The notes: generated by a model from the letters alone, not told the origin. A stretch of 40,276 nucleotides of DNA from a virus (IMGVR_UViG_2713896903_000005), one strand, 5' to 3'; positions 3,846 to 36,111 are shown, numbered from the stretch's first letter. Numbers and translations: made by a program.

Positions 3846-4430
3846 TTATTGTTTGCTTTTTTCGTTCTGGTTGATGACAAATTCAATGTAACTTTCGATC
3901 TTTGCTTTCTCGGTTTCGGGTAACAATGCGTAGCGCGAGCGGTCATAGTTGATGGTTGCAGGGTCGTGCGGGTGAATCAGTAATTCATAGCCGTGACGCC
4001 CGAATGCGGATGCCACATTCTCCAGGGTGGAAATGGAAACGCTAACCTCATTGTTTAACAGGCGGCTGATTGTCACCTGGGCGACGCCGGATGCGCGGTG
4101 TAGTTTTCCCTGCGTTGAAAGGTCGCGGCTTTCGCTCATCCAGCGTTCCAGGTTGTGAGCCGCCAGCTGACCTATATCGCTTGGTCCGACAGGCTGAAAA
4201 CCTTCCTGAGAAAGCGAGCGATCGATATCAAGCCAGTTACGGGGTTTATTGGCGGCAGCTTCAATTTTTCGAGCAACCTGGTCGCCGATAACCTTTTTGC
4301 CAAGAGCCCAGCGGTTTACCAGATTTGCCTGAGTTCCAAGTTTTTCTGCCATCCGCGTCTGAACACCATTGAATTCACGGTCGATCAAGTCGTTGAGATT
4401 TTGCCTGCGGACGTCCTGGATACTTTTCAT
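3846..4430 (-). CDS. prophage repressor (CI-like), tandem HTH, no peptidase domain
   Basis: 194 aa with two XRE-type HTH-like segments (residues about 10-60 and 105-150) and no S24/LexA-like Ala-Gly...Ser...Lys signature; divergent from the Cro-like gene. Confidence 0.7.
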   Translation of the reverse strand: MKSIQDVRRQNLNDLIDREFNGVQTRMAEKLGTQANLVNRWALGKKVIGDQVARKIEAAANKPRNWLDIDRSLSQEGFQPVGPSDIGQLAAHNLERWMSESRDLSTQGKLHRASGVAQVTISRLLNNEVSVSISTLENVASAFGRHGYELLIHPHDPATINYDRSRYALLPETEKAKIESYIEFVINQNEKSKQ

Positions 4431-4965: not shown

Positions 4966-5166
4966 ATGGAAATCATTACACGTATTGATGCCGCAAAGCG
5001 CGGGCTTAAACGCTACTACACCGGAAAACCATGTAAGCACGGACATGACAGTGAACGCTGGGTTTACAACGGACACTGTGTTGAGTGCACCATGGAATCA
5101 AACCGTCGCATCAGGGCAGAGATTAAGCAGATCATGATTAATTCCTCCCCACAACATTCAAGCTGA
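4966..5166 (+). CDS. small zinc-ribbon protein (66 aa), function unknown
   Basis: CKHGH...CVEC motif; internal ATG at 4966 chosen over the TTG at 4903; in the position of cII-like genes but without obvious HTH. Confidence 0.45.
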   Translation: MEIITRIDAAKRGLKRYYTGKPCKHGHDSERWVYNGHCVECTMESNRRIRAEIKQIMINSSPQHSS

Positions 5167-30804: not shown

Positions 30805-30830
30805 CACAAAAAAGCCCGCGGCGCGGGCTA
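30805..30830 (-). terminator. intrinsic terminator ending the leftward antirepressor operon
   Basis: Minus strand: GCCCGCG-C-CGCGGGC hairpin followed by TTTTTTGTGG. Confidence 0.6.
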
Positions 30831-31343
30831 TTCTTCATCTTGATTATTTTTATTTGGTCTGTCGTTTCTACCAAGAATAAATACAGAAGCCAAACCAATT
30901 AGATCAACAGTTATTAATGTACCAGCAAATACTGTATCACCGTTCCAAGCAAAAAGAGTGGCAATAGCAAGAATAAGAATTGTGACAGTGAAAGCCATCC
31001 ACTGACCGCGCTTATCTTTATATATTGCACCAGACATAGCCATATATTCCATGCTATGACGATGAGCCTGTTCCTTTTCGCTCCTGACCATTATTCTTTC
31101 GGCTCCGTTATCTACGATTTCGTTGTATTCACGGAGCATTGATGGTGGAGGCAGAGGTCCGCTAAAAGAACTCTTCTTTACAATCGCCATGAACTGAGGC
31201 CGTTCAAGTAAGCGTTGGAGAATGGCTGGGTTTTCAACCAACTCTCCTTCGATTTCCTTGACCTTTTCCTCAGTTACCTTTTCCTGCTCATCACCGGGCT
31301 GTGGCAAGCTGACGTCTTGCTTTTCTTGCACGCAGTCGCTCAT
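30828..31343 (-). CDS. DUF2335-like membrane protein
   Basis: 171 aa; soluble N-terminal region with PPPSMLREYNEIVDNGAERIMVRSEKEQAHRH followed by two C-terminal transmembrane helices. Confidence 0.5.
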   Translation of the reverse strand: MSDCVQEKQDVSLPQPGDEQEKVTEEKVKEIEGELVENPAILQRLLERPQFMAIVKKSSFSGPLPPPSMLREYNEIVDNGAERIMVRSEKEQAHRHSMEYMAMSGAIYKDKRGQWMAFTVTILILAIATLFAWNGDTVFAGTLITVDLIGLASVFILGRNDRPNKNNQDEE

Positions 31344-31506
31344 ATGGCCTCATACTTATCCTTAAGTCATCACCTACAGCCTGAAAGTCATTTCTTATTG
31401 ACTCTGCATCTGAATTACTAGATAGCAGCTTTGTATAATCTGTAGATGGAACCAAATCCAAGATACTACCTGCTGCACGCATAATCCTGCGGGTTGAGCG
31501 CAACAT
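31291..31506 (-). CDS. hypothetical small protein (71 aa)
   Basis: Strong SD AGGAGGT 5 nt before the ATG at 31506; 3' end overlaps the start of the DUF2335-like gene by about 50 nt in another frame. Confidence 0.35.
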   Translation of the reverse strand: MLRSTRRIMRAAGSILDLVPSTDYTKLLSSNSDAESIRNDFQAVGDDLRISMRPYERLRARKARRQLATAR

Positions 31507-31565
31507 ATCGTACCTCCTATTTAACCAAAGGCTTAATTACCTTTGGAGTAAACTTAATTAAAAAA

Positions 31566-31775
31566 CTACTTCCTTACAGTGGCAAGATCCTGTTTAACAA
31601 TTGCAGCAGCGAGACGACGCATCTCCTTAACTTCAGGAAGCTCAGAAATTTGCTGTGATGAAATATATACACCACCACGCTTGTTAACCTGCGCTGACGC
31701 CGGAACTTCTGCATTTTTTGCCTGAGGGCTGAGTGCATTATCCCTCGTTTTTGTACGAGCGGACCAAAATCCCAT
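31566..31775 (-). CDS. hypothetical small protein (69 aa)
   Basis: Strong SD GAGGAGGAG before the ATG at 31775; promoter-like TTGCAG-17-TACTAT upstream with an operator-like palindrome over the start site. Confidence 0.45.
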   Translation of the reverse strand: MGFWSARTKTRDNALSPQAKNAEVPASAQVNKRGGVYISSQQISELPEVKEMRRLAAAIVKQDLATVRK

Positions 31776-31801: not shown

Positions 31802-31816
31802 TTACCTTTAGGGTAA
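31802..31816. promoter_or_regulatory. operator-like palindrome TTACCTTTAGGGTAA
   Basis: Perfect site immediately downstream of a minus-strand -10-like TACTAT (31822..31817). Confidence 0.5.
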
Positions 31817-31888: not shown

Positions 31889-32599
31889 TCAGAAGAACCC
31901 TGCCTTGTCGTTGATGTACTCCGCGTGCGTCTGGATATCACGCAGGCATTTGCTCACACCAACGATGTAGCAGAACATGGTGGTCAGCTCCGCCGCCGCG
32001 CCCGATACGTCGTGCCCGTCGTCCTGCAACTGGTTTAGCAGATTCATCAGCAGTGAGTTCTCCGTCAGGCCGAGAACACCAGACGGCGAGTGAATCAGGC
32101 TGCGGTAGCCGGGCTTCAGCGGGGCGCTGTAGGTTTTGTTCTCTATCTTCATTGCCTGCATCACTGCTGACGCCGTGGCGTTGGCTACCTGGTCGGCAAC
32201 CATCTTTATGCGTTCTTCCTGCGGGAGCGAGTTTTTAATGTAACTTCCGGTGCGGCGGATCTGAGGAAGTACCTCACCTGTAACCCATTTACGAAAGCGG
32301 TAGGGGATAGTGCCTGGTGTCACTGCGTCGCGGCAGCGGAGGATCAGTGTGTAGAGGCCTGACTCGGAGATGATGTTGATCTCTTTTACTCGGCGGTCAA
32401 AAATTACACGATGTTCATGCCCTATGTTGAACATAGACCTTTCATCATCATCCAGTTTTTCAAGTGCTTGGGTGACGTTTTGGATACGCAGCGCACTACA
32501 AACGTCTTGGGCTACAAACCATGGTTGGCCATCGATAATGATGGAACGGATAGGGTTAACAGATTCAAATTTGAAGATGGCAGTTTGAGCATTAGCCAT
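31889..32599 (-). CDS. Bro-N domain antirepressor
   Basis: N-terminal Bro-N-like segment (FKFESVNPIRSIIIDGQPWFVAQDVCSAL); C-terminal domain shared with the short 33748..34005 product; ATG at 32599 with SD GGAG (ORF-track start 32614). Confidence 0.65.
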   Translation of the reverse strand: MANAQTAIFKFESVNPIRSIIIDGQPWFVAQDVCSALRIQNVTQALEKLDDDERSMFNIGHEHRVIFDRRVKEINIISESGLYTLILRCRDAVTPGTIPYRFRKWVTGEVLPQIRRTGSYIKNSLPQEERIKMVADQVANATASAVMQAMKIENKTYSAPLKPGYRSLIHSPSGVLGLTENSLLMNLLNQLQDDGHDVSGAAAELTTMFCYIVGVSKCLRDIQTHAEYINDKAGFF

Positions 32600-32753
32600 G
32601 GTGGTTATCTCCACTTAGTGATTTTAATCACCACCGCAACGCCAATTACTGGTGGTGAACTGGACAAGGTTGGCGTACCGGCCTAAGTGGTACCGGCGTC
32701 CTTTCGGACCCCTGCCCAGCCCACCATAATTCGGATATAGCTGTGCTTAACGC

Positions 32754-32777
32754 ATAAAAAAACCACGTCTGGCGTGG
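32754..32777 (-). terminator. intrinsic terminator or attenuator inside the antirepressor leader
   Basis: Minus strand: CCACG-CCAGA-CGTGG hairpin followed by TTTTTTTAT, about 150 nt upstream of the Bro-N start. Confidence 0.5.
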
Positions 32778-32868
32778 TATGCGCCACTTAGTAACTCGGG
32801 ACGCCAATCCCGGCACTGGATTTTGCCAGTGCCCGATTACTATGGCACAAGAGGAGTGCTATGTAAAT

Positions 32869-32883
32869 TTACCGCAAAGGTAA
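32869..32883. promoter_or_regulatory. operator-like palindrome TTACCGCAAAGGTAA
   Basis: Perfect site overlapping the predicted start site of a minus-strand promoter (-35 TTGATT, -10 TTATCA region, about 32890..32918). Confidence 0.5.
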
Positions 32884-32961
32884 TGATAAACGCGAAGAAA
32901 TATTAAAATCAACCGTATTTGGTTGATTGCGTTTAACGCTTGATCACCTGAAAGCAAGATA

Positions 32962-32976
32962 TTACCTTTAAGGTAA
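32962..32976. promoter_or_regulatory. operator-like palindrome TTACCTTTAAGGTAA
   Basis: Perfect site 20 nt upstream of the 32997 start codon. Confidence 0.5.
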
Positions 32977-32996
32977 TGTTATTGTGAGGAAAAGCA

Positions 32997-33725
32997 ATGG
33001 AAGTTTTCTGGATAGTTGTTGGTGTGGTTGCGGTGATTATTTACGTTATCAACCAGAACAAGACTAAGATCTCTGATCGTACGGTCGTTAATCATAACAA
33101 AACGATAAAGACCGAAGATGGGGAGATAACGATTAATCGTACACAGGTGATAGAACACACCTCCACTCAGTTTCAAAAAACGGGAGATAATGCGCCTAAT
33201 ATTTCCGTACCTCCTGCTTATGATAGCGCGGTAATCCAGACATATTATAAACAGCAGGAGTTAGCAAAAGAGAGGCAACTGATTCAGCCAAAGCCATTTA
33301 CAGCAGAGCTTCCACCTGGAGTGTCAACGCGTCCGGCATATCATGGAAGATTCCCTGGTGATGACGTATCGTCTCAGTCACCTAAAAAAGCACCTCAGGC
33401 AGTATCAGAGCCAGCAAGAATACCTTCTGTATCGCCGTCAAAAGAAGAATCAGCTAACGAAGTTTCAAGTGCCCGCAAGCAGTGTTTGCGATGCAGAATA
33501 AACCTTCCATATGAAAAATTCAGGAAATCGTCAAAAAATCCAGATGGATTGACTAAGTGGTGTGCAAGGTGTCTAGATGGCCCAAAGAATACACGTCATA
33601 TGAAGTGGTGCCCAATTTGTAATGTCCGCAGAAAACGAACCAGCTTTTACCCTAATAATCAAAATGCGGACGGCTTAATGGCATGGTGCAAAACGTGCTG
33701 GGATGAGCACAAAGCGAAACGATAG
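32997..33725 (+). CDS. membrane-anchored protein with duplicated Cys-rich zinc-ribbon-like motifs
   Basis: 242 aa; N-terminal transmembrane helix (FWIVVGVVAVIIYVI), Pro/Ser-rich linker, two C-terminal repeats (CLRCR...DGLTKWCARC and CPIC...DGLMAWCKTC); AT-rich. Confidence 0.5.
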   Translation: MEVFWIVVGVVAVIIYVINQNKTKISDRTVVNHNKTIKTEDGEITINRTQVIEHTSTQFQKTGDNAPNISVPPAYDSAVIQTYYKQQELAKERQLIQPKPFTAELPPGVSTRPAYHGRFPGDDVSSQSPKKAPQAVSEPARIPSVSPSKEESANEVSSARKQCLRCRINLPYEKFRKSSKNPDGLTKWCARCLDGPKNTRHMKWCPICNVRRKRTSFYPNNQNADGLMAWCKTCWDEHKAKR

Positions 33726-33750
33726 GCCGCTCTTGCGGCCTTTAAATTTA
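33725..33750. terminator. terminator hairpin between convergent genes
   Basis: GGCCGC-TCTT-GCGGCC hairpin followed by TTTAAATTT on the plus strand and a T-rich run on the minus strand. Confidence 0.55.
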
Positions 33751-34005
33751 CCGGGTTTGTTTTCGTAATTGTTCGGCACAATAGTCGAGATGTGTTTGCA
33801 GATCCTGCATAGACATCTGCGAGCTGGTGACGTAGTTAATCAGTGCAGTCAGTTCGGCAAGTGGGCCATCGACATTAAATCCATCCTTATCGAGATCCCG
33901 GAGTAATTTCATCAAGTGCGATCCCTCCACCAGTGACCTGACGCCTCCCGGCGTGTGAATCCTTTCGGTAAATCCGTCTTCCAGTGGATAGTGATACTGC
34001 TGCAT
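33748..34005 (-). CDS. short antirepressor-like protein, probably SOS-regulated
   Basis: About 85 aa from the ATG at 34005 (SD GGAGAAG); matches the C-terminal domain of the Bro-N antirepressor (TPGGVRSLVEGSHLMKLLRDLDKDGFNVDGPLAELT vs SPSGVLGLTENSLLMNLLNQLQDDGHDVSGAAAELT); a LexA box lies 20-40 nt upstream. Confidence 0.5.
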   Translation of the reverse strand: MQQYHYPLEDGFTERIHTPGGVRSLVEGSHLMKLLRDLDKDGFNVDGPLAELTALINYVTSSQMSMQDLQTHLDYCAEQLRKQTR

Positions 34006-34081: not shown

Positions 34082-34096
34082 TTACCTGAAAGGTAA
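34082..34096. promoter_or_regulatory. operator-like palindrome TTACCTGAAAGGTAA
   Basis: Perfect site between the antirepressor gene and the tailspike gene. Confidence 0.5.
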
Positions 34097-34200: not shown

Positions 34201-36111
34201 ATGACGGTCTCAACAGAAGTTGACCACAACGAATATACAGGTAACGGTGTTACAACTACGTTCCCTTATACCTTTAGGATTTTCCAGAAATCTGATCTGG
34301 TAGTACAAGTGGTTGACCTTGATGAAAATATCACAGTTCTTGCTCTTGATACTGATTACACAGTTACCGGGGCGGGAGGGTATAACGGTGGTAATGTAAT
34401 TCTGTCGAAGGCGTTGGCTAACGGTTATCAGATTTCTATGTATCGAGAGCTACCGGTTACGCAGGAAACCGATCTGCGCAATCAGGGTAAGTTCTTTGCA
34501 GAGGTGCATGAGGATGCGTTTGATAAGCTAACGATGCTGATCCAGCAGGTTCGCAGTTTGTTTACCTTGGCGCTTCGCAAGCCATCATTCGTGGCAAACT
34601 ATTATGATGCTTTGAATAATTACATCCGTAATCTTCGTGACCCGTCTCATCCTCAGGATGCAGCCACCAAGAATTATGTAGATACGCTGGCCAACGGAAA
34701 CCTAAACAGGGTGCTAAGAGTTCCAGAAGCATCCATACCTTCTCTTCCTGACGTTAATGGAAGGAGAAATAAAGCATTAAGTTTTGATGCATCTGGTAAC
34801 CCCTTGCTTTTAGATCCTGCAGGCAGTGGATTATGGGGATATGTTCTTATCGATTCGTTCCAGGCTGGAGCAAAAATATCAACCCGTTACGAAGCATTGC
34901 ATTGGCCTCTTCCTGATGGGGATGGTGAATATTATCGTTGGGATGGAGTATTGCCTAAGGAAGTCCCTGCAGGATCAACCCCTGACTCAACTGGTGGAAT
35001 AGGAATTGGGGCGTGGGTTGGTATAGGTGATGCATCATTAAGATCTGACTTGGCAGATAATCTAATCCCAGGAGCAAGCTTGGTATCAATACATTCTGGG
35101 ACGGTTAACGATGCTCTTGTGTATAACACTCCAGAAATGTTTGGCGCGCGACCAGACGGTTCTGTAGATGCATCTTCAGCTATTATTGCAGCAGGAAAGG
35201 ATGGCATTGGTAGTTATGGTGTAAATAAAGTTCTCCTCACAGGAGGTTCAGAAAGAACATTTGATATACAGTCTGATACAAATTCTCTTATCCTGTCATT
35301 CGGAAGACCATTTATTAATGGTATGGGAAATGGTGAGATAATCGATGTAAGAAGAACGATAAATCGCCCTATTAATAATAAAGGCCATTCTTCTTATCTT
35401 ATAGCTCACCGTGGGTATGTGAATGTACATGCTGAAAATACGGTCGCATCAATTAGTCTTGCGGCAAAATCTTGCCATGCTGTAGAGGTTGATGTTCAGA
35501 CCACATCTGACGGTCGATATGTTGTTTTTCATGACTTTACCACTGGTAATTTAATGAATAATGATCTAACTGTAGCAACATCAACCCTAGAACAACTTCA
35601 GGCATTAAAATATAAGAAAATGATTGGTACAAAATATGAGTACCATTGCAGGATTCCTACATTTGAGCAAGTTCTTGACGCTTGCCGTAGAACAGGCACT
35701 GAAATTTGGTGGGAGATTATGTCAACCAATACACCAGATCAAGTTGATGGTATGATACAGGCCGTCATTGATTATGGAATGGAACACAATGCTGTTTGCA
35801 CCACCGGAGTAGTATCTAACTTATATCTTCTCCGCAATAAATCTGAAGATATGAGAGTTCAATTAACTTCATCCAGCGCGACCCCCGATGAAACAGTGAA
35901 AGATATGGTTCGTCATCTTCGCCATATTGGTAATGGAACTCTTGCAATTGAGTATATTGACATGACAAACAGGCCATGGATACCTGAATATTGTTACCAA
36001 CGAGGCGTGGATATTGTTGTTTACACATTGTTTGCGTCTTATCAGGCGGTTCAAGCAAGAAACATCGGGATTCGGCAGATCATGTGTAACCAACAAGTAG
36101 GAGTTGAATAA
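34201..36111 (+). CDS. tailspike with C-terminal glycerophosphodiester phosphodiesterase (GDPD)-like domain
   Basis: N-terminus (NEYTGNGVTTTFPYTFRIF) matches the conserved particle-binding domain of podovirus tail fibres and tailspikes; C-terminal region carries GDPD-type motifs (IAHRG...ENT...VEVDV...DGRYVVFHD, later RIPTFEQVL...EIWWEI); SD GGAG. Confidence 0.7.
   Translation: MTVSTEVDHNEYTGNGVTTTFPYTFRIFQKSDLVVQVVDLDENITVLALDTDYTVTGAGGYNGGNVILSKALANGYQISMYRELPVTQETDLRNQGKFFAEVHEDAFDKLTMLIQQVRSLFTLALRKPSFVANYYDALNNYIRNLRDPSHPQDAATKNYVDTLANGNLNRVLRVPEASIPSLPDVNGRRNKALSFDASGNPLLLDPAGSGLWGYVLIDSFQAGAKISTRYEALHWPLPDGDGEYYRWDGVLPKEVPAGSTPDSTGGIGIGAWVGIGDASLRSDLADNLIPGASLVSIHSGTVNDALVYNTPEMFGARPDGSVDASSAIIAAGKDGIGSYGVNKVLLTGGSERTFDIQSDTNSLILSFGRPFINGMGNGEIIDVRRTINRPINNKGHSSYLIAHRGYVNVHAENTVASISLAAKSCHAVEVDVQTTSDGRYVVFHDFTTGNLMNNDLTVATSTLEQLQALKYKKMIGTKYEYHCRIPTFEQVLDACRRTGTEIWWEIMSTNTPDQVDGMIQAVIDYGMEHNAVCTTGVVSNLYLLRNKSEDMRVQLTSSSATPDETVKDMVRHLRHIGNGTLAIEYIDMTNRPWIPEYCYQRGVDIVVYTLFASYQAVQARNIGIRQIMCNQQVGVE

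What the first reader, a model, noticed from the sequence alone, without database searches (positions are those of the whole stretch)
32997..33725. Membrane-anchored protein with duplicated Cys-rich motifs flanked by operator-like sites
A single N-terminal transmembrane helix, a long low-complexity linker and two tandem CxxC...WCxxC units. It sits between two perfect palindromes and a terminator inside the antirepressor region and is AT-rich. The architecture resembles membrane-tethered zinc-binding regulators or exclusion proteins, but I know of no specific family it belongs to.
Basis: inference. Interest (0 to 1): 0.45.

Follow-up and report, generated by a model that had tools for sequence, protein, structure and literature searches.

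The report
Membrane-tethered double zinc-finger prophage accessory protein
This is a real, conserved but uncharacterised accessory gene of enterobacterial prophages, encoding a protein anchored in the inner membrane that holds two basic, nuclease-type zinc fingers in the cytoplasm on a long flexible tether; its genomic company suggests, but does not prove, a role in excluding or defending against other phages.

Summary
The ORF (32997-33725, +, 242 aa) is real. The described anatomy holds: one N-terminal TM helix, a variable Pro/Ser-rich linker, and two CxxC-x22-CxxC units.

The window is an epsilon15/phiV10-like phage, 96% identical to TL-2011b here. The gene, with its promoter region and terminator, is an ~875-nt cassette that phiV10 lacks.

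The palindrome just upstream, ATTACCTTTAAGGTAAT, is one of 16 copies of ATTACC-N5-GGTAAT. The epsilon15 GenBank record annotates that motif as repressor-binding sites. Another nearby hairpin belongs to isrK/C4 antisense RNA genes of the antirepressor operon.

The protein matches only PHROG 6762 (unknown function). It has no hit at or above threshold in Pfam, NCBIfam, PADLOC or PDB sequences.

Its fingers are the Stc1-type C4 fingers found next to HNH/endonuclease VII nucleases and on two defence-type helicases. They lack a catalytic His and are very basic (pI 10).

Homologues occur only as prophage cargo in Enterobacterales and Aeromonas. One lies directly downstream of cI and one directly downstream of mnt.

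Best reading (confidence about 0.4): an N-out/C-in membrane-tethered nucleic-acid binder acting in superinfection exclusion or defence. The function is inferred, not shown.

The parts
32940..32945 (+). Candidate -35 hexamer TTGATC of the ORF's own promoter
   Evidence: It lies 17 nt upstream of TACCTT (32963-32968). The same layout occurs upstream of homologues: TTGAAC-17-TACCTT in Serratia L004 and TTGACA-16-TACCTT in Pectobacterium L011. It is weak by consensus and was not picked up by the promoter scan. Inferred.
32961..32977 (.). Operator ATTACCTTTAAGGTAAT, a perfect 17-bp match to the phage-wide ATTACC-N5-GGTAAT motif. It contains the candidate -10 TACCTT and ends 19 nt before the ATG.
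   Evidence: The same motif is annotated as protein_bind 'repressor' in epsilon15 AY150271.
32986..32989 (+). Shine-Dalgarno GAGG, 7 nt before the ATG
   Evidence: Read from the sequence.
32997..33725 (+). Coding sequence, 242 aa plus stop
   Evidence: The family is conserved, and all amino-acid differences among E. coli alleles fall in residues 33-160.
33003..33059 (+). Transmembrane helix (residues 3-21), followed by NQNKTK; predicted N-out/C-in
   Evidence: Hydropathy. AF2 helix 3-21 with pLDDT ~90. The basic residues after the helix are conserved in the family. The topology itself is inferred from the positive-inside rule.
33060..33167 (+). Conserved juxtamembrane segment (residues 22-57), predicted beta-hairpin 29-52
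   Evidence: Nearly invariant T36, K38, T39, G42, E43, T49. The AF2 strands have low confidence, pLDDT 50-60.
33168..33467 (+). Variable, probably disordered Pro/Ser/Ala-rich tether (residues 58-157)
   Evidence: Length and sequence vary among homologues, including PAPAPA runs. pLDDT is mostly below 60. 14 Pro and 12 Ser in 97 residues.
33477..33575 (+). Zinc finger 1 (residues 161-193): K-x-C163-x2-C166 ... D183-G184 ... W188-C189-x2-C192
   Evidence: Invariant columns. pLDDT above 90. Sub-threshold Stc1 match over 159-193.
33603..33701 (+). Zinc finger 2 (residues 203-235): K-W-C205-x2-C208 ... D225-G226 ... W230-C231-x2-C234, with the conserved basic run R211-R212-K213-R214
   Evidence: PHROG endonuclease VII and HNH profiles match residues 197-241 at 1e-10 to 1e-6.
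33724..33750 (+). Intrinsic-terminator-like hairpin AGGCCGC-TCTT-GCGGCCT overlapping the stop codon, followed by a weak T-tract
   Evidence: The same stem follows the gene in TL-2011b, H10407 and the Providencia locus L013.
32868..32884 (.). Second operator copy, TTTACCGCAAAGGTAAT, at the left edge of the cassette, facing the antirepressor operon
   Evidence: phiV10 has a single copy here, inside an 18-bp perfect inverted repeat.
32874..33747 (+). Extent of the cassette that is absent from phiV10 (about 875 nt here against about 42 nt in phiV10)
   Evidence: blastn of the window against phiV10 locus L002. Sequence of the empty site.

Best explanation
The ORF is a self-contained accessory ('moron') cassette of an epsilon15/phiV10-like prophage, with its own promoter, a repressor operator, the gene and a terminator.

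The protein is anchored in the inner membrane by an N-terminal helix. Only two residues lie outside; the rest is cytoplasmic. After a conserved juxtamembrane hairpin, a flexible tether of about 100 residues carries two C4 zinc fingers.

The fingers are of the Stc1 type, the kind attached to HNH and endonuclease VII nucleases. They are strongly basic (pI 10) and lack the nuclease's catalytic histidine. They should therefore bind a polyanion, most likely DNA or RNA, without cutting it.

Proposed mechanism: the fingers sweep the cytoplasmic face of the membrane and capture nucleic acid there, most plausibly the DNA of an incoming phage as it emerges from the ejection channel. This would block or delay its establishment, as a superinfection-exclusion or defence function.

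Shown: the gene is real and conserved; the anatomy; the finger homology; the cassette nature; the operator motif; the genomic contexts.

Inferred: topology, zinc binding, nucleic-acid binding, the timing of expression, and the exclusion function.
For: A real gene under selection:
- 54 homologue clusters have the same architecture.
- The gene is present in 129 of 5426 complete E. coli genomes.
- All amino-acid differences among three E. coli alleles fall in residues 33-160. None falls in the TM or the fingers. dN/dS is 0.09-0.68.

Anatomy:
- Hydropathy and AF2 support the TM and the fingers.
- NQN[KR]T[KR] after the TM is conserved.
- The C-terminal domain has 21 K/R in 85 residues, pI 10.0.

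Finger kinship:
- PHROG endonuclease VII and HNH profiles match at 1e-10 to 1e-6.
- Among 61 distant multi-finger relatives, 32 match Stc1, 10 HNH, 10 HNH_5 and 8 Endonuclease_7.
- 38 BFVD hits at E<=1e-3 are mostly HNH, beta-beta-alpha-Me, endonuclease VII or Stc1 proteins.
- The same double finger sits on a MkoC-like SF1 helicase and a PbeA-like ResIII helicase.

Accessory status:
- The gene is absent from phiV10 at the same site.
- One homologue is on the opposite strand inside a siphovirus tail operon.
- Another is in a small resolvase-bearing island.

Company typical of lysogen-expressed exclusion genes:
- One homologue starts 18 nt after cI in Aeromonas phage phiARM81mr, with no terminator between them. 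This is the position of rexAB in lambda.
- One starts 11 nt after an mnt-like gene in a P22-like immI region, converging on the ejection-protein genes. This is the position of sieA in P22.
- In the epsilon15-like prophages sampled (Serratia, Providencia, Salmonella, Yersinia and an unnamed host), it sits beside the ejection-protein genes.
Against: - No experiment exists on any family member. Every source calls it hypothetical.
- No PADLOC defence model matches.
- In this window the operator overlaps the candidate -10. If the prophage repressor binds it, the gene would be shut off in the lysogen and made only on infection or induction. That fits an early (T4 Imm-like) exclusion role, but not a classical lysogen-expressed one. 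It also differs from the cI- and mnt-linked homologues.
- Stc1's own fingers are, from my own memory and not checked here, protein-binding adaptors. The ligand could therefore be a protein.
- Zinc fingers this small give no specificity clue. The juxtamembrane hairpin and its function are unexplained.
Confidence: 0.4

Rival explanations
1. Membrane-tethered player in the lysis-lysogeny switch. The fingers would bind a protein, such as the repressor, the antirepressor or a host factor, and sequester it at the membrane. This would tune immunity rather than exclude other phages.
For: - The gene lies between the antirepressor gene and a paralogue of its C-terminal domain.
- It carries the same operator as those genes.
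- Homologues abut cI or mnt.
- From my own memory, not checked here, Stc1-type fingers act as protein adaptors in fission yeast.
- The letters H201-x3-C205-x2-C208 mimic the ZAS anti-sigma motif.
Against: - phiV10 and epsilon15 lack the gene yet are working temperate phages.
- Homologues also occur away from any immunity region, in a tail operon and in a small island.
- The predicted fold is beta-rich C4 fingers, not a helical anti-sigma domain.
- The closest finger relatives are on nucleases and helicases.
Confidence: 0.15
2. Host-directed accessory function unrelated to other phages. An example would be tethering or perturbing the nucleoid, or blocking division or another membrane-proximal process during lytic growth (a kil-like takeover function or a fitness factor).
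For: - The operator overlapping the -10 predicts expression on derepression, together with early genes.
- The basic fingers could bind host DNA or RNA or acidic phospholipid.
- A copy is retained in a widespread Salmonella prophage remnant, indexed in 1337 blocks of the collection.
Against: - Co-transcription with cI or mnt in other phages implies that the product is tolerated continuously in lysogens.
- There is no similarity to known kil or division inhibitors in Pfam, PHROG or NCBIfam.
Confidence: 0.15
3. Membrane anchoring of the phage's own DNA for replication or packaging, as with phi29 p16.7.
For: The layout is the same as I recall for p16.7 (own knowledge): N-terminal TM, middle spacer, C-terminal nucleic-acid-binding module. 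AF2 also suggests a helix at 77-95.
Against: - The gene is dispensable, since close relatives lack it.
- It is scattered among unrelated phage types with different replication modules.
- It is linked to repressor genes rather than to replication genes.
Confidence: 0.08
4. An active, minimal HNH-like nuclease tethered to the membrane.
For: Each finger superposes on the zinc-bound core of beta-beta-alpha-Me nucleases, namely PacI and Hpy99I. There are also many HNH hits in BFVD.
Against: - There is no His between the CxxC pairs of either finger (residues 167-188 and 209-230).
- There is no Pfam HNH or Endonuclease_7 match.
- In relatives, these fingers accompany a separate nuclease domain.
Confidence: 0.04
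5. Opposite topology: the Cys-rich domain is periplasmic and disulfide-bonded, masking a receptor or an envelope component.
For: The tether is proline-rich, which is reminiscent of TonB-type periplasmic spacers.
Against: - There is no positive charge before the TM (Met-Glu only), and there are three K/R just after it.
- Exporting a domain with 21 K/R would violate the positive-inside rule.
- Homologous fingers belong to cytoplasmic nucleases and helicases.
Confidence: 0.04

Closest known systems
Accessory C4 zinc fingers of phage and giant-virus HNH / endonuclease VII proteins (Pfam Stc1-type, PF12898)
   Same: The unit is the same: CxxC, a beta-hairpin with a conserved Phe, then D-G...CxxC at the start of a short helix. 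Evidence comes from sequence matches and from fold matches to Hpy99I, PacI and many viral HNH proteins.
   Different: Here there is no nuclease domain at all and no catalytic His. The fingers are tethered to a membrane anchor. This protein scores 21.2 bits against Stc1, below the 24.8-bit cut-off.
P22 SieA (inner-membrane superinfection exclusion protein of the immI region)
   Same: Both are prophage accessory inner-membrane proteins encoded between the ejection-protein genes and the tailspike/immI genes. In one P22-like prophage the homologue lies downstream of mnt and converges on the ejection-protein genes.
   Different: SieA is a 162-164-aa protein with three predicted TM segments and no zinc fingers. 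No sequence relationship was seen. The only Sie-like PHROG match has E 0.73.
Lambda rexA/rexB, genes co-transcribed with cI
   Same: In Aeromonas phage phiARM81mr the homologue starts 18 nt after the cI stop codon on the same strand. From my own knowledge, this is the position that lambda uses for lysogen-expressed exclusion genes.
   Different: There is no sequence or architectural similarity. In this window the gene is not next to the repressor gene.
phi29 p16.7 (membrane-anchored DNA-binding protein)
   Same: From my own knowledge, p16.7 has an N-terminal TM anchor, a spacer and a C-terminal nucleic-acid-binding domain facing the cytoplasm.
   Different: p16.7 serves replication of its own phage and is not a zinc-finger protein. 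The present gene is dispensable cargo. Homology was not tested.
ZAS-type membrane anti-sigma factors (own knowledge: RsrA, RslA, ChrR class)
   Same: Both are zinc-binding and often membrane-attached. The letters H-x3-C-x2-C occur here at H201, C205 and C208.
   Different: The order of domains is reversed. The predicted fold is beta-rich C4 fingers rather than a helical anti-sigma domain. There is no Pfam match.

Membership tests
PHROG 6762 (phage protein family, function unknown) | Full-length match to the family profile | tested here: met
   E 7.5e-148, residues 1-242 on profile positions 1-242 of 242.
Pfam Stc1 domain (PF12898) | Score at or above the curated gathering cut-off (24.8 bits) | tested here: not met
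   21.2 bits, E 4.4e-4, and only profile positions 50-83 of 84. By contrast, 32 of 61 distant multi-finger relatives match at E<=1e-4, and one Morganella homologue carries a precomputed PF12898 hit.
Pfam Stc1 domain (PF12898) | Eight conserved cysteines forming two C4 sites | tested here: met
   C163, C166, C189, C192, C205, C208, C231 and C234 are invariant or nearly invariant. Actual metal binding is not testable here.
HNH / beta-beta-alpha-Me nucleases (including endonuclease VII) | Catalytic His at the end of the first strand and a metal-binding Asn/His in the helix, between the two CxxC pairs | tested here: not met
   There is no His in residues 167-188 or 209-230. There is no Pfam HNH or Endonuclease_7 hit. 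The fold of the zinc core does match.
P22 SieA-type exclusion proteins | Polytopic inner-membrane protein of about 160 aa with three TM segments, homologous to SieA | tested here: not met
   Only one TM segment is present. No significant Sie-like profile match was found (E 0.73). A direct alignment to SieA was not run.
P22 SieA-type exclusion proteins | Blocks DNA delivery by superinfecting phage | not testable with these tools
   This needs plating and DNA-entry assays.
Known anti-phage defence systems (PADLOC-DB 2.0) | Match to any defence protein model | tested here: not met
   0 families at E<=0.01. Two proteins that carry the same finger module match MkoC and PbeA through their helicase parts.
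Lar-like restriction alleviation proteins (PHROG 5558) | Match beyond the shared zinc finger | tested here: not met
   Only residues 201-241 match profile positions 7-47 of 130. Pfam gives no Lar family hit up to E 10.
ZAS anti-sigma factors | N-terminal helical anti-sigma domain with H-x3-C-x2-C, followed by the TM | tested here: not met
   The motif letters are present at 201-208. However, the TM is N-terminal and the region is predicted as beta-rich C4 fingers.
Repressor regulon of epsilon15-like phages | ATTACC-N5-GGTAAT site at the promoter | tested here: met
   A perfect 17-mer at 32961-32977. The motif is identical to the sites annotated 'repressor' in AY150271. Binding and repression are not testable here.

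The most novel reading that the evidence does not exclude
A previously unrecognised class of phage-encoded exclusion or defence protein. It would be an inner-membrane anchor that uses a long disordered tether to 'fish' with nuclease-derived, catalytically dead zinc fingers for nucleic acid entering at the cytoplasmic face of the membrane. It would move as a promoter-operator-gene-terminator cassette between unrelated prophages and be wired into each resident phage's repressor circuit.
Probability: 0.3. Interest if true: 0.6.

Novelty: new variant of a known kind. Interest (0 to 1): 0.42.

Why it matters
Prophage cargo genes next to immunity genes have repeatedly turned out to be exclusion or defence functions, such as rexAB and sieA.

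This family is common. It occurs in about 2.4% of complete E. coli genomes and in a Salmonella prophage remnant listed in 1337 blocks of the assembly index. It also occurs in Serratia, Providencia, Morganella, Pectobacterium, Dickeya, Yersinia and Aeromonas.

It has no annotation anywhere, and its architecture has no studied counterpart that I could find. It is small and easy to clone and test.

If it does block incoming DNA from the cytoplasmic side, that would add a new mechanism to superinfection exclusion. It would also give a function to the widespread Stc1-type fingers that decorate viral HNH nucleases and some defence helicases.

If it does nothing of the kind, it is one more ordinary hypothetical moron.

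Tried and rejected
**Searches that gave nothing**
- Pfam gave only sub-threshold Stc1.
- NCBIfam and PADLOC gave nothing.
- The PDB sequence search gave no hit up to E 10.
- Foldseek of the full-length model against PDB had no hit at E<=0.001, best E 1.3. I therefore modelled the finger domain alone.
- The afdb50 fold library was unavailable.
- A literature search by accession or PHROG id returned 0 papers. A search for 'zinc ribbon' with 'superinfection exclusion' returned nothing relevant.
- The epsilon15 genome paper is not held. The operator assignment therefore rests on the GenBank annotation, which I take to be a prediction.
- The vB_EcoP_ZX5 paper says nothing about operators.

**Ideas rejected**
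- SieA homologue: the architecture differs.
- Active HNH nuclease: no catalytic His.
- ZAS anti-sigma factor: wrong order of domains and wrong fold.
- TonB-like periplasmic protein: the charge distribution is wrong.
- Lar-like protein: only the finger matches.
- Cleavable signal peptide or lipoprotein: there is no basic n-region and no lipobox Cys.
- The 32812-32833 palindrome as an operator: it is a hairpin of the isrK/c4-a1b1 RNA.
- The 32907-32928 hairpin as a conserved element: it is degenerate in TL-2011b.

**Caveat**
- The candidate promoter TTGATC-17-TACCTT is weak and failed the scan's criteria. I keep it only because the same layout recurs in Serratia and Pectobacterium.

Full report
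**1. The observation**

The ORF at 32997-33725 (+) exists. It has an ATG start and a GAGG ribosome-binding site 7 nt upstream.

Its product has one strongly hydrophobic segment, residues 2-19, with mean hydropathy 2.7. Nothing else exceeds 0.23.

A Pro/Ser-rich middle part follows. The protein ends with two units of CxxC-x22-(W)CxxC: C163/C166/C189/C192 and C205/C208/C231/C234.

Upstream lie three perfect palindromes with 8-bp arms. A G+C-rich hairpin overlaps the stop codon.

The gene is mildly AT-rich, 43.6% GC against 49.3% for the window.

**2. Where it sits**

The window is an epsilon15/phiV10-like podovirus genome. The region is 96% identical to Escherichia phage TL-2011b. The ORF is intact there but is annotated only as a misc_feature.

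The exact protein is on record from Escherichia marmotae and as a multispecies Escherichia entry, always named 'hypothetical'.

To the left, on the minus strand, is a Bro-N antirepressor gene at 31889-32614. It is preceded by two RNA genes that pass Rfam's curated thresholds:
- a C4 antisense RNA at 32648-32731, 66 bits against a cut-off of 45;
- an isrK-type RNA at 32756-32832, 67 bits against a cut-off of 50.

A near-threshold c4-a1b1 element overlaps the latter. This is a P1-type immI arrangement. One palindrome near the ORF, 32812-32833, is simply a hairpin of that RNA.

To the right, on the minus strand, is an 85-aa gene at 33748-34005. Its product is 42% identical to the C-terminal domain of the antirepressor. 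Beyond it lies the tailspike gene.

Compared with phiV10, window 32874-33747 (about 875 nt) replaces about 42 nt. The ORF, its upstream region and its terminator therefore form an insertion cassette.

**3. The 'operator-like' sites**

The palindrome 19 nt upstream of the ATG is ATTACCTTTAAGGTAAT (32961-32977). The core TTACC-N5-GGTAA occurs 16 times in the window with up to one mismatch, 11 of them perfect. The chance expectation is 0.53.

The copies lie in front of nearly every transcription unit:
- between the repressor and cro-like genes;
- before the replication, terminase, portal and lysis genes;
- before each small operon of the variable region.

The GenBank record of epsilon15 annotates seven sites of exactly this form, ATTACC-N5-GGTAAT, as protein_bind 'repressor', at the equivalent places.

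A second copy (32868-32884) faces the antirepressor operon.

Upstream of the ORF, the operator contains TACCTT exactly 17 nt after TTGATC. The same layout is found upstream of the Serratia homologue (TTGAAC-17-TACCTT) and the Pectobacterium homologue (TTGACA-16-TACCTT). Those phages also carry the dispersed motif.

I infer a weak sigma-70 promoter whose -10 lies inside the operator. The consensus scan did not accept this promoter. If the inference is right, this copy of the gene is repressed by the prophage repressor and is made on infection or induction.

**4. The protein**

AlphaFold2 on a 30-sequence alignment gives:
- a confident helix at residues 3-21;
- a low-confidence beta-hairpin at 29-52;
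- a low-confidence middle part;
- a confident C-terminal domain, pLDDT above 90 from residue 160.

The finger domain modelled alone reaches pLDDT 89. It consists of two beta-hairpin-plus-short-helix units.

The N-terminus before the helix is only Met-Glu. The helix is followed by NQN[KR]T[KR] throughout the family. By the positive-inside rule, the bulk of the protein is therefore cytoplasmic.

The finger domain has 21 Lys/Arg in 85 residues (pI 10.0) and a nearly invariant RR[KM][RK]T run.

Among three E. coli alleles, every amino-acid difference lies in residues 33-160. None lies in the anchor or the fingers. The ends are thus conserved, while the tether is free to vary in sequence and length.

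**5. What the fingers are**

The only full-length family match is PHROG 6762, of unknown function. Each finger matches the N-terminal fingers of PHROG endonuclease VII, HNH and 'endonuclease' families at 1e-10 to 1e-6.

A profile search of 1.8 billion representatives found 1735 proteins at E<=0.001. Many of the listed hits have 3-10 matched stretches. Of 61 long ones:
- 32 match Pfam Stc1;
- 10 match HNH and 10 match HNH_5;
- 8 match Endonuclease_7.

The same double finger ends a MkoC-like SF1 helicase. Ten copies of the finger precede a PbeA-like ResIII helicase.

Neither finger has a histidine between its CxxC pairs, and no nuclease profile matches. I read them as catalytically dead relatives of the zinc core of HNH nucleases, used as binding modules.

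**6. Distribution and company**

Homologues with the same architecture form 54 clusters in Escherichia, Salmonella, Citrobacter, Enterobacter, Serratia, Providencia, Morganella, Pectobacterium, Dickeya, Buttiauxella and Superficieibacter. They also occur in Yersinia phages YeP4-6 and Aeromonas phage phiARM81mr.

129 of 5426 complete E. coli genomes carry the cassette, always on the chromosome. A Salmonella version sits in a prophage remnant listed in 1337 blocks of the assembly index.

Every context examined is phage-derived or mobile-element cargo:
- In the other epsilon15-like prophages, the gene lies in the variable region beside the ejection-protein genes, usually convergent with them. In this window and in E. 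coli H10407 it sits further along the same variable region, next to the antirepressor gene.
- In Pectobacterium, it follows a HicAB pair.
- In a siphovirus, it lies on the opposite strand inside the tail genes.
- In Buttiauxella, it lies in a small island with resolvases.

Two contexts are telling:
- In a P22-like immI region, it starts 11 nt after an mnt-like gene and converges on the ejection-protein genes. P22 keeps sieA in this region.
- In phiARM81mr, it starts 18 nt after the cI stop codon with no terminator in between. From my own knowledge, lambda keeps rexAB in this position.

**7. Mechanism and rivals**

I commit to the following model. The protein is an N-out/C-in membrane-tethered binder of nucleic acid. 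It acts at the inner face of the membrane as an accessory exclusion or defence function, most plausibly on phage DNA emerging from the ejection channel.

The anatomy, the homology and the contexts are shown. Zinc binding, topology, the ligand, the timing of expression and the phenotype are inferred. I put this model at about 0.4.

Rivals, with rough confidences:
- a membrane-sequestering regulator of the immunity switch (0.15);
- a host-directed early function (0.15);
- a phi29 p16.7-like anchor for the phage's own DNA (0.08);
- an active mini-nuclease (0.04);
- a periplasmic Cys-rich domain (0.04).

An unresolved tension remains. In this phage the operator predicts repression in the lysogen. 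The cI- and mnt-linked homologues should instead be expressed in the lysogen. A function useful in both states, such as exclusion, would reconcile the two, but this is an argument and not evidence.

**8. Comparison and novelty**

The protein is a member of PHROG 6762 and of nothing else.
- It falls just below the Stc1 Pfam cut-off, although its relatives pass.
- It fails the defining catalytic feature of HNH nucleases.
- It has neither the architecture nor any detectable sequence similarity to SieA.
- It has the wrong domain order and fold for ZAS anti-sigma factors.

The parts are known: a membrane anchor, a disordered tether, nuclease-type fingers, and moron organisation under a repressor operator. 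I could not find the combination described anywhere.

I class it as a new variant of a known kind, namely prophage accessory membrane proteins, and as of moderate interest until a phenotype is found.

Noticed in passing
window 32648-32845 (-): The antirepressor gene is preceded on the minus strand by a C4 antisense RNA (32648-32731, 66 bits) and an isrK-type RNA (32756-32832, 67 bits, ending in a terminator hairpin at 32762-32778). A near-threshold c4-a1b1 target element lies at 32793-32845. This is a P1-like immI control region in an epsilon15-like phage.
   Followed up: partly
window 3712, 3774, 4486, 4534, 4871, 6817, 6879, 10505, 10523, 13674, 31537, 31802, 32869, 32962, 34082, 37022: There are 16 copies of TTACC-N5-GGTAA against 0.53 expected, lying in front of nearly every transcription unit, late and lysis genes included. 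The motif equals the 'repressor' sites annotated in epsilon15. Several copies overlap the ribosome-binding site of the next gene (6879, 10523). The repressor regulon looks P1-like in being dispersed.
   Followed up: partly
window 3846-4430 (-): The candidate prophage repressor (194 aa) has an HTH_3 domain in its C-terminal half and a weaker YdaS-like HTH in its N-terminal half. No S24 peptidase domain was found. Induction therefore probably runs through the antirepressor rather than through RecA-mediated cleavage.
   Followed up: no
window 33748-34005 (-): The 85-aa gene (homologue of phiV10p24 and epsilon15 gp19) is a stand-alone paralogue of the antirepressor's C-terminal domain: 42% identity over 74 aa, E 2e-15. 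It has its own operator copy at 34082-34096.
   Followed up: partly
L002 (phiV10) 4150-4195; window 32868-32884 and 33744-33750: At the empty site, phiV10 has one operator in the centre of an 18-bp perfect inverted repeat. In the window only the left arm remains, and a TTTACC half-site recurs at the right edge of the cassette. Operator copies may serve as recombination points for cassette exchange. This is speculative.
   Followed up: no
window 34201-36111 (+): The tailspike carries a Tail_spike_N domain (E 2.7e-17) followed by a C-terminal glycerophosphodiester phosphodiesterase (GDPD) domain at residues 403-627 (E 3.3e-22). This is an unusual candidate receptor-destroying activity.
   Followed up: no
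window 4966-5166 (+): A small ORF just upstream of the replication gene encodes ...YYTGKPCKHGHDSERWVYNGHCVECT..., which looks like another small Cys/His metal-binding protein. It has no Pfam match.
   Followed up: no
window 30828-31775 (-): A minus-strand set of small genes (31566-31775, 31291-31506) ends in a DUF2335 predicted membrane protein (30828-31343). Operator copies lie at 31802 and 31537. This is further uncharacterised cargo in the same variable region.
   Followed up: no
L021 (Yersinia phage YeP5) 1900-2634: The YeP5 homologue has a (TK)9 repeat directly after the TM helix. Its annotated start is probably about 29 codons too far upstream, since the family start MEIFW is internal.
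   Followed up: no
L013 6634-6660; window 33724-33741: The terminator stem AGGCCGC-N4-GCGGCCT overlapping the stop codon is the same in the E. coli and Providencia cassettes, although the proteins are only 54% identical. This suggests that gene and terminator travel together.
   Followed up: no
L008 3330-4193: In the P22-like prophage, the gene after the homologue encodes a 287-aa protein with an N-terminal signal-like segment and a C-terminal TM. It may be a second envelope-associated cargo protein in the sieA position.
   Followed up: no
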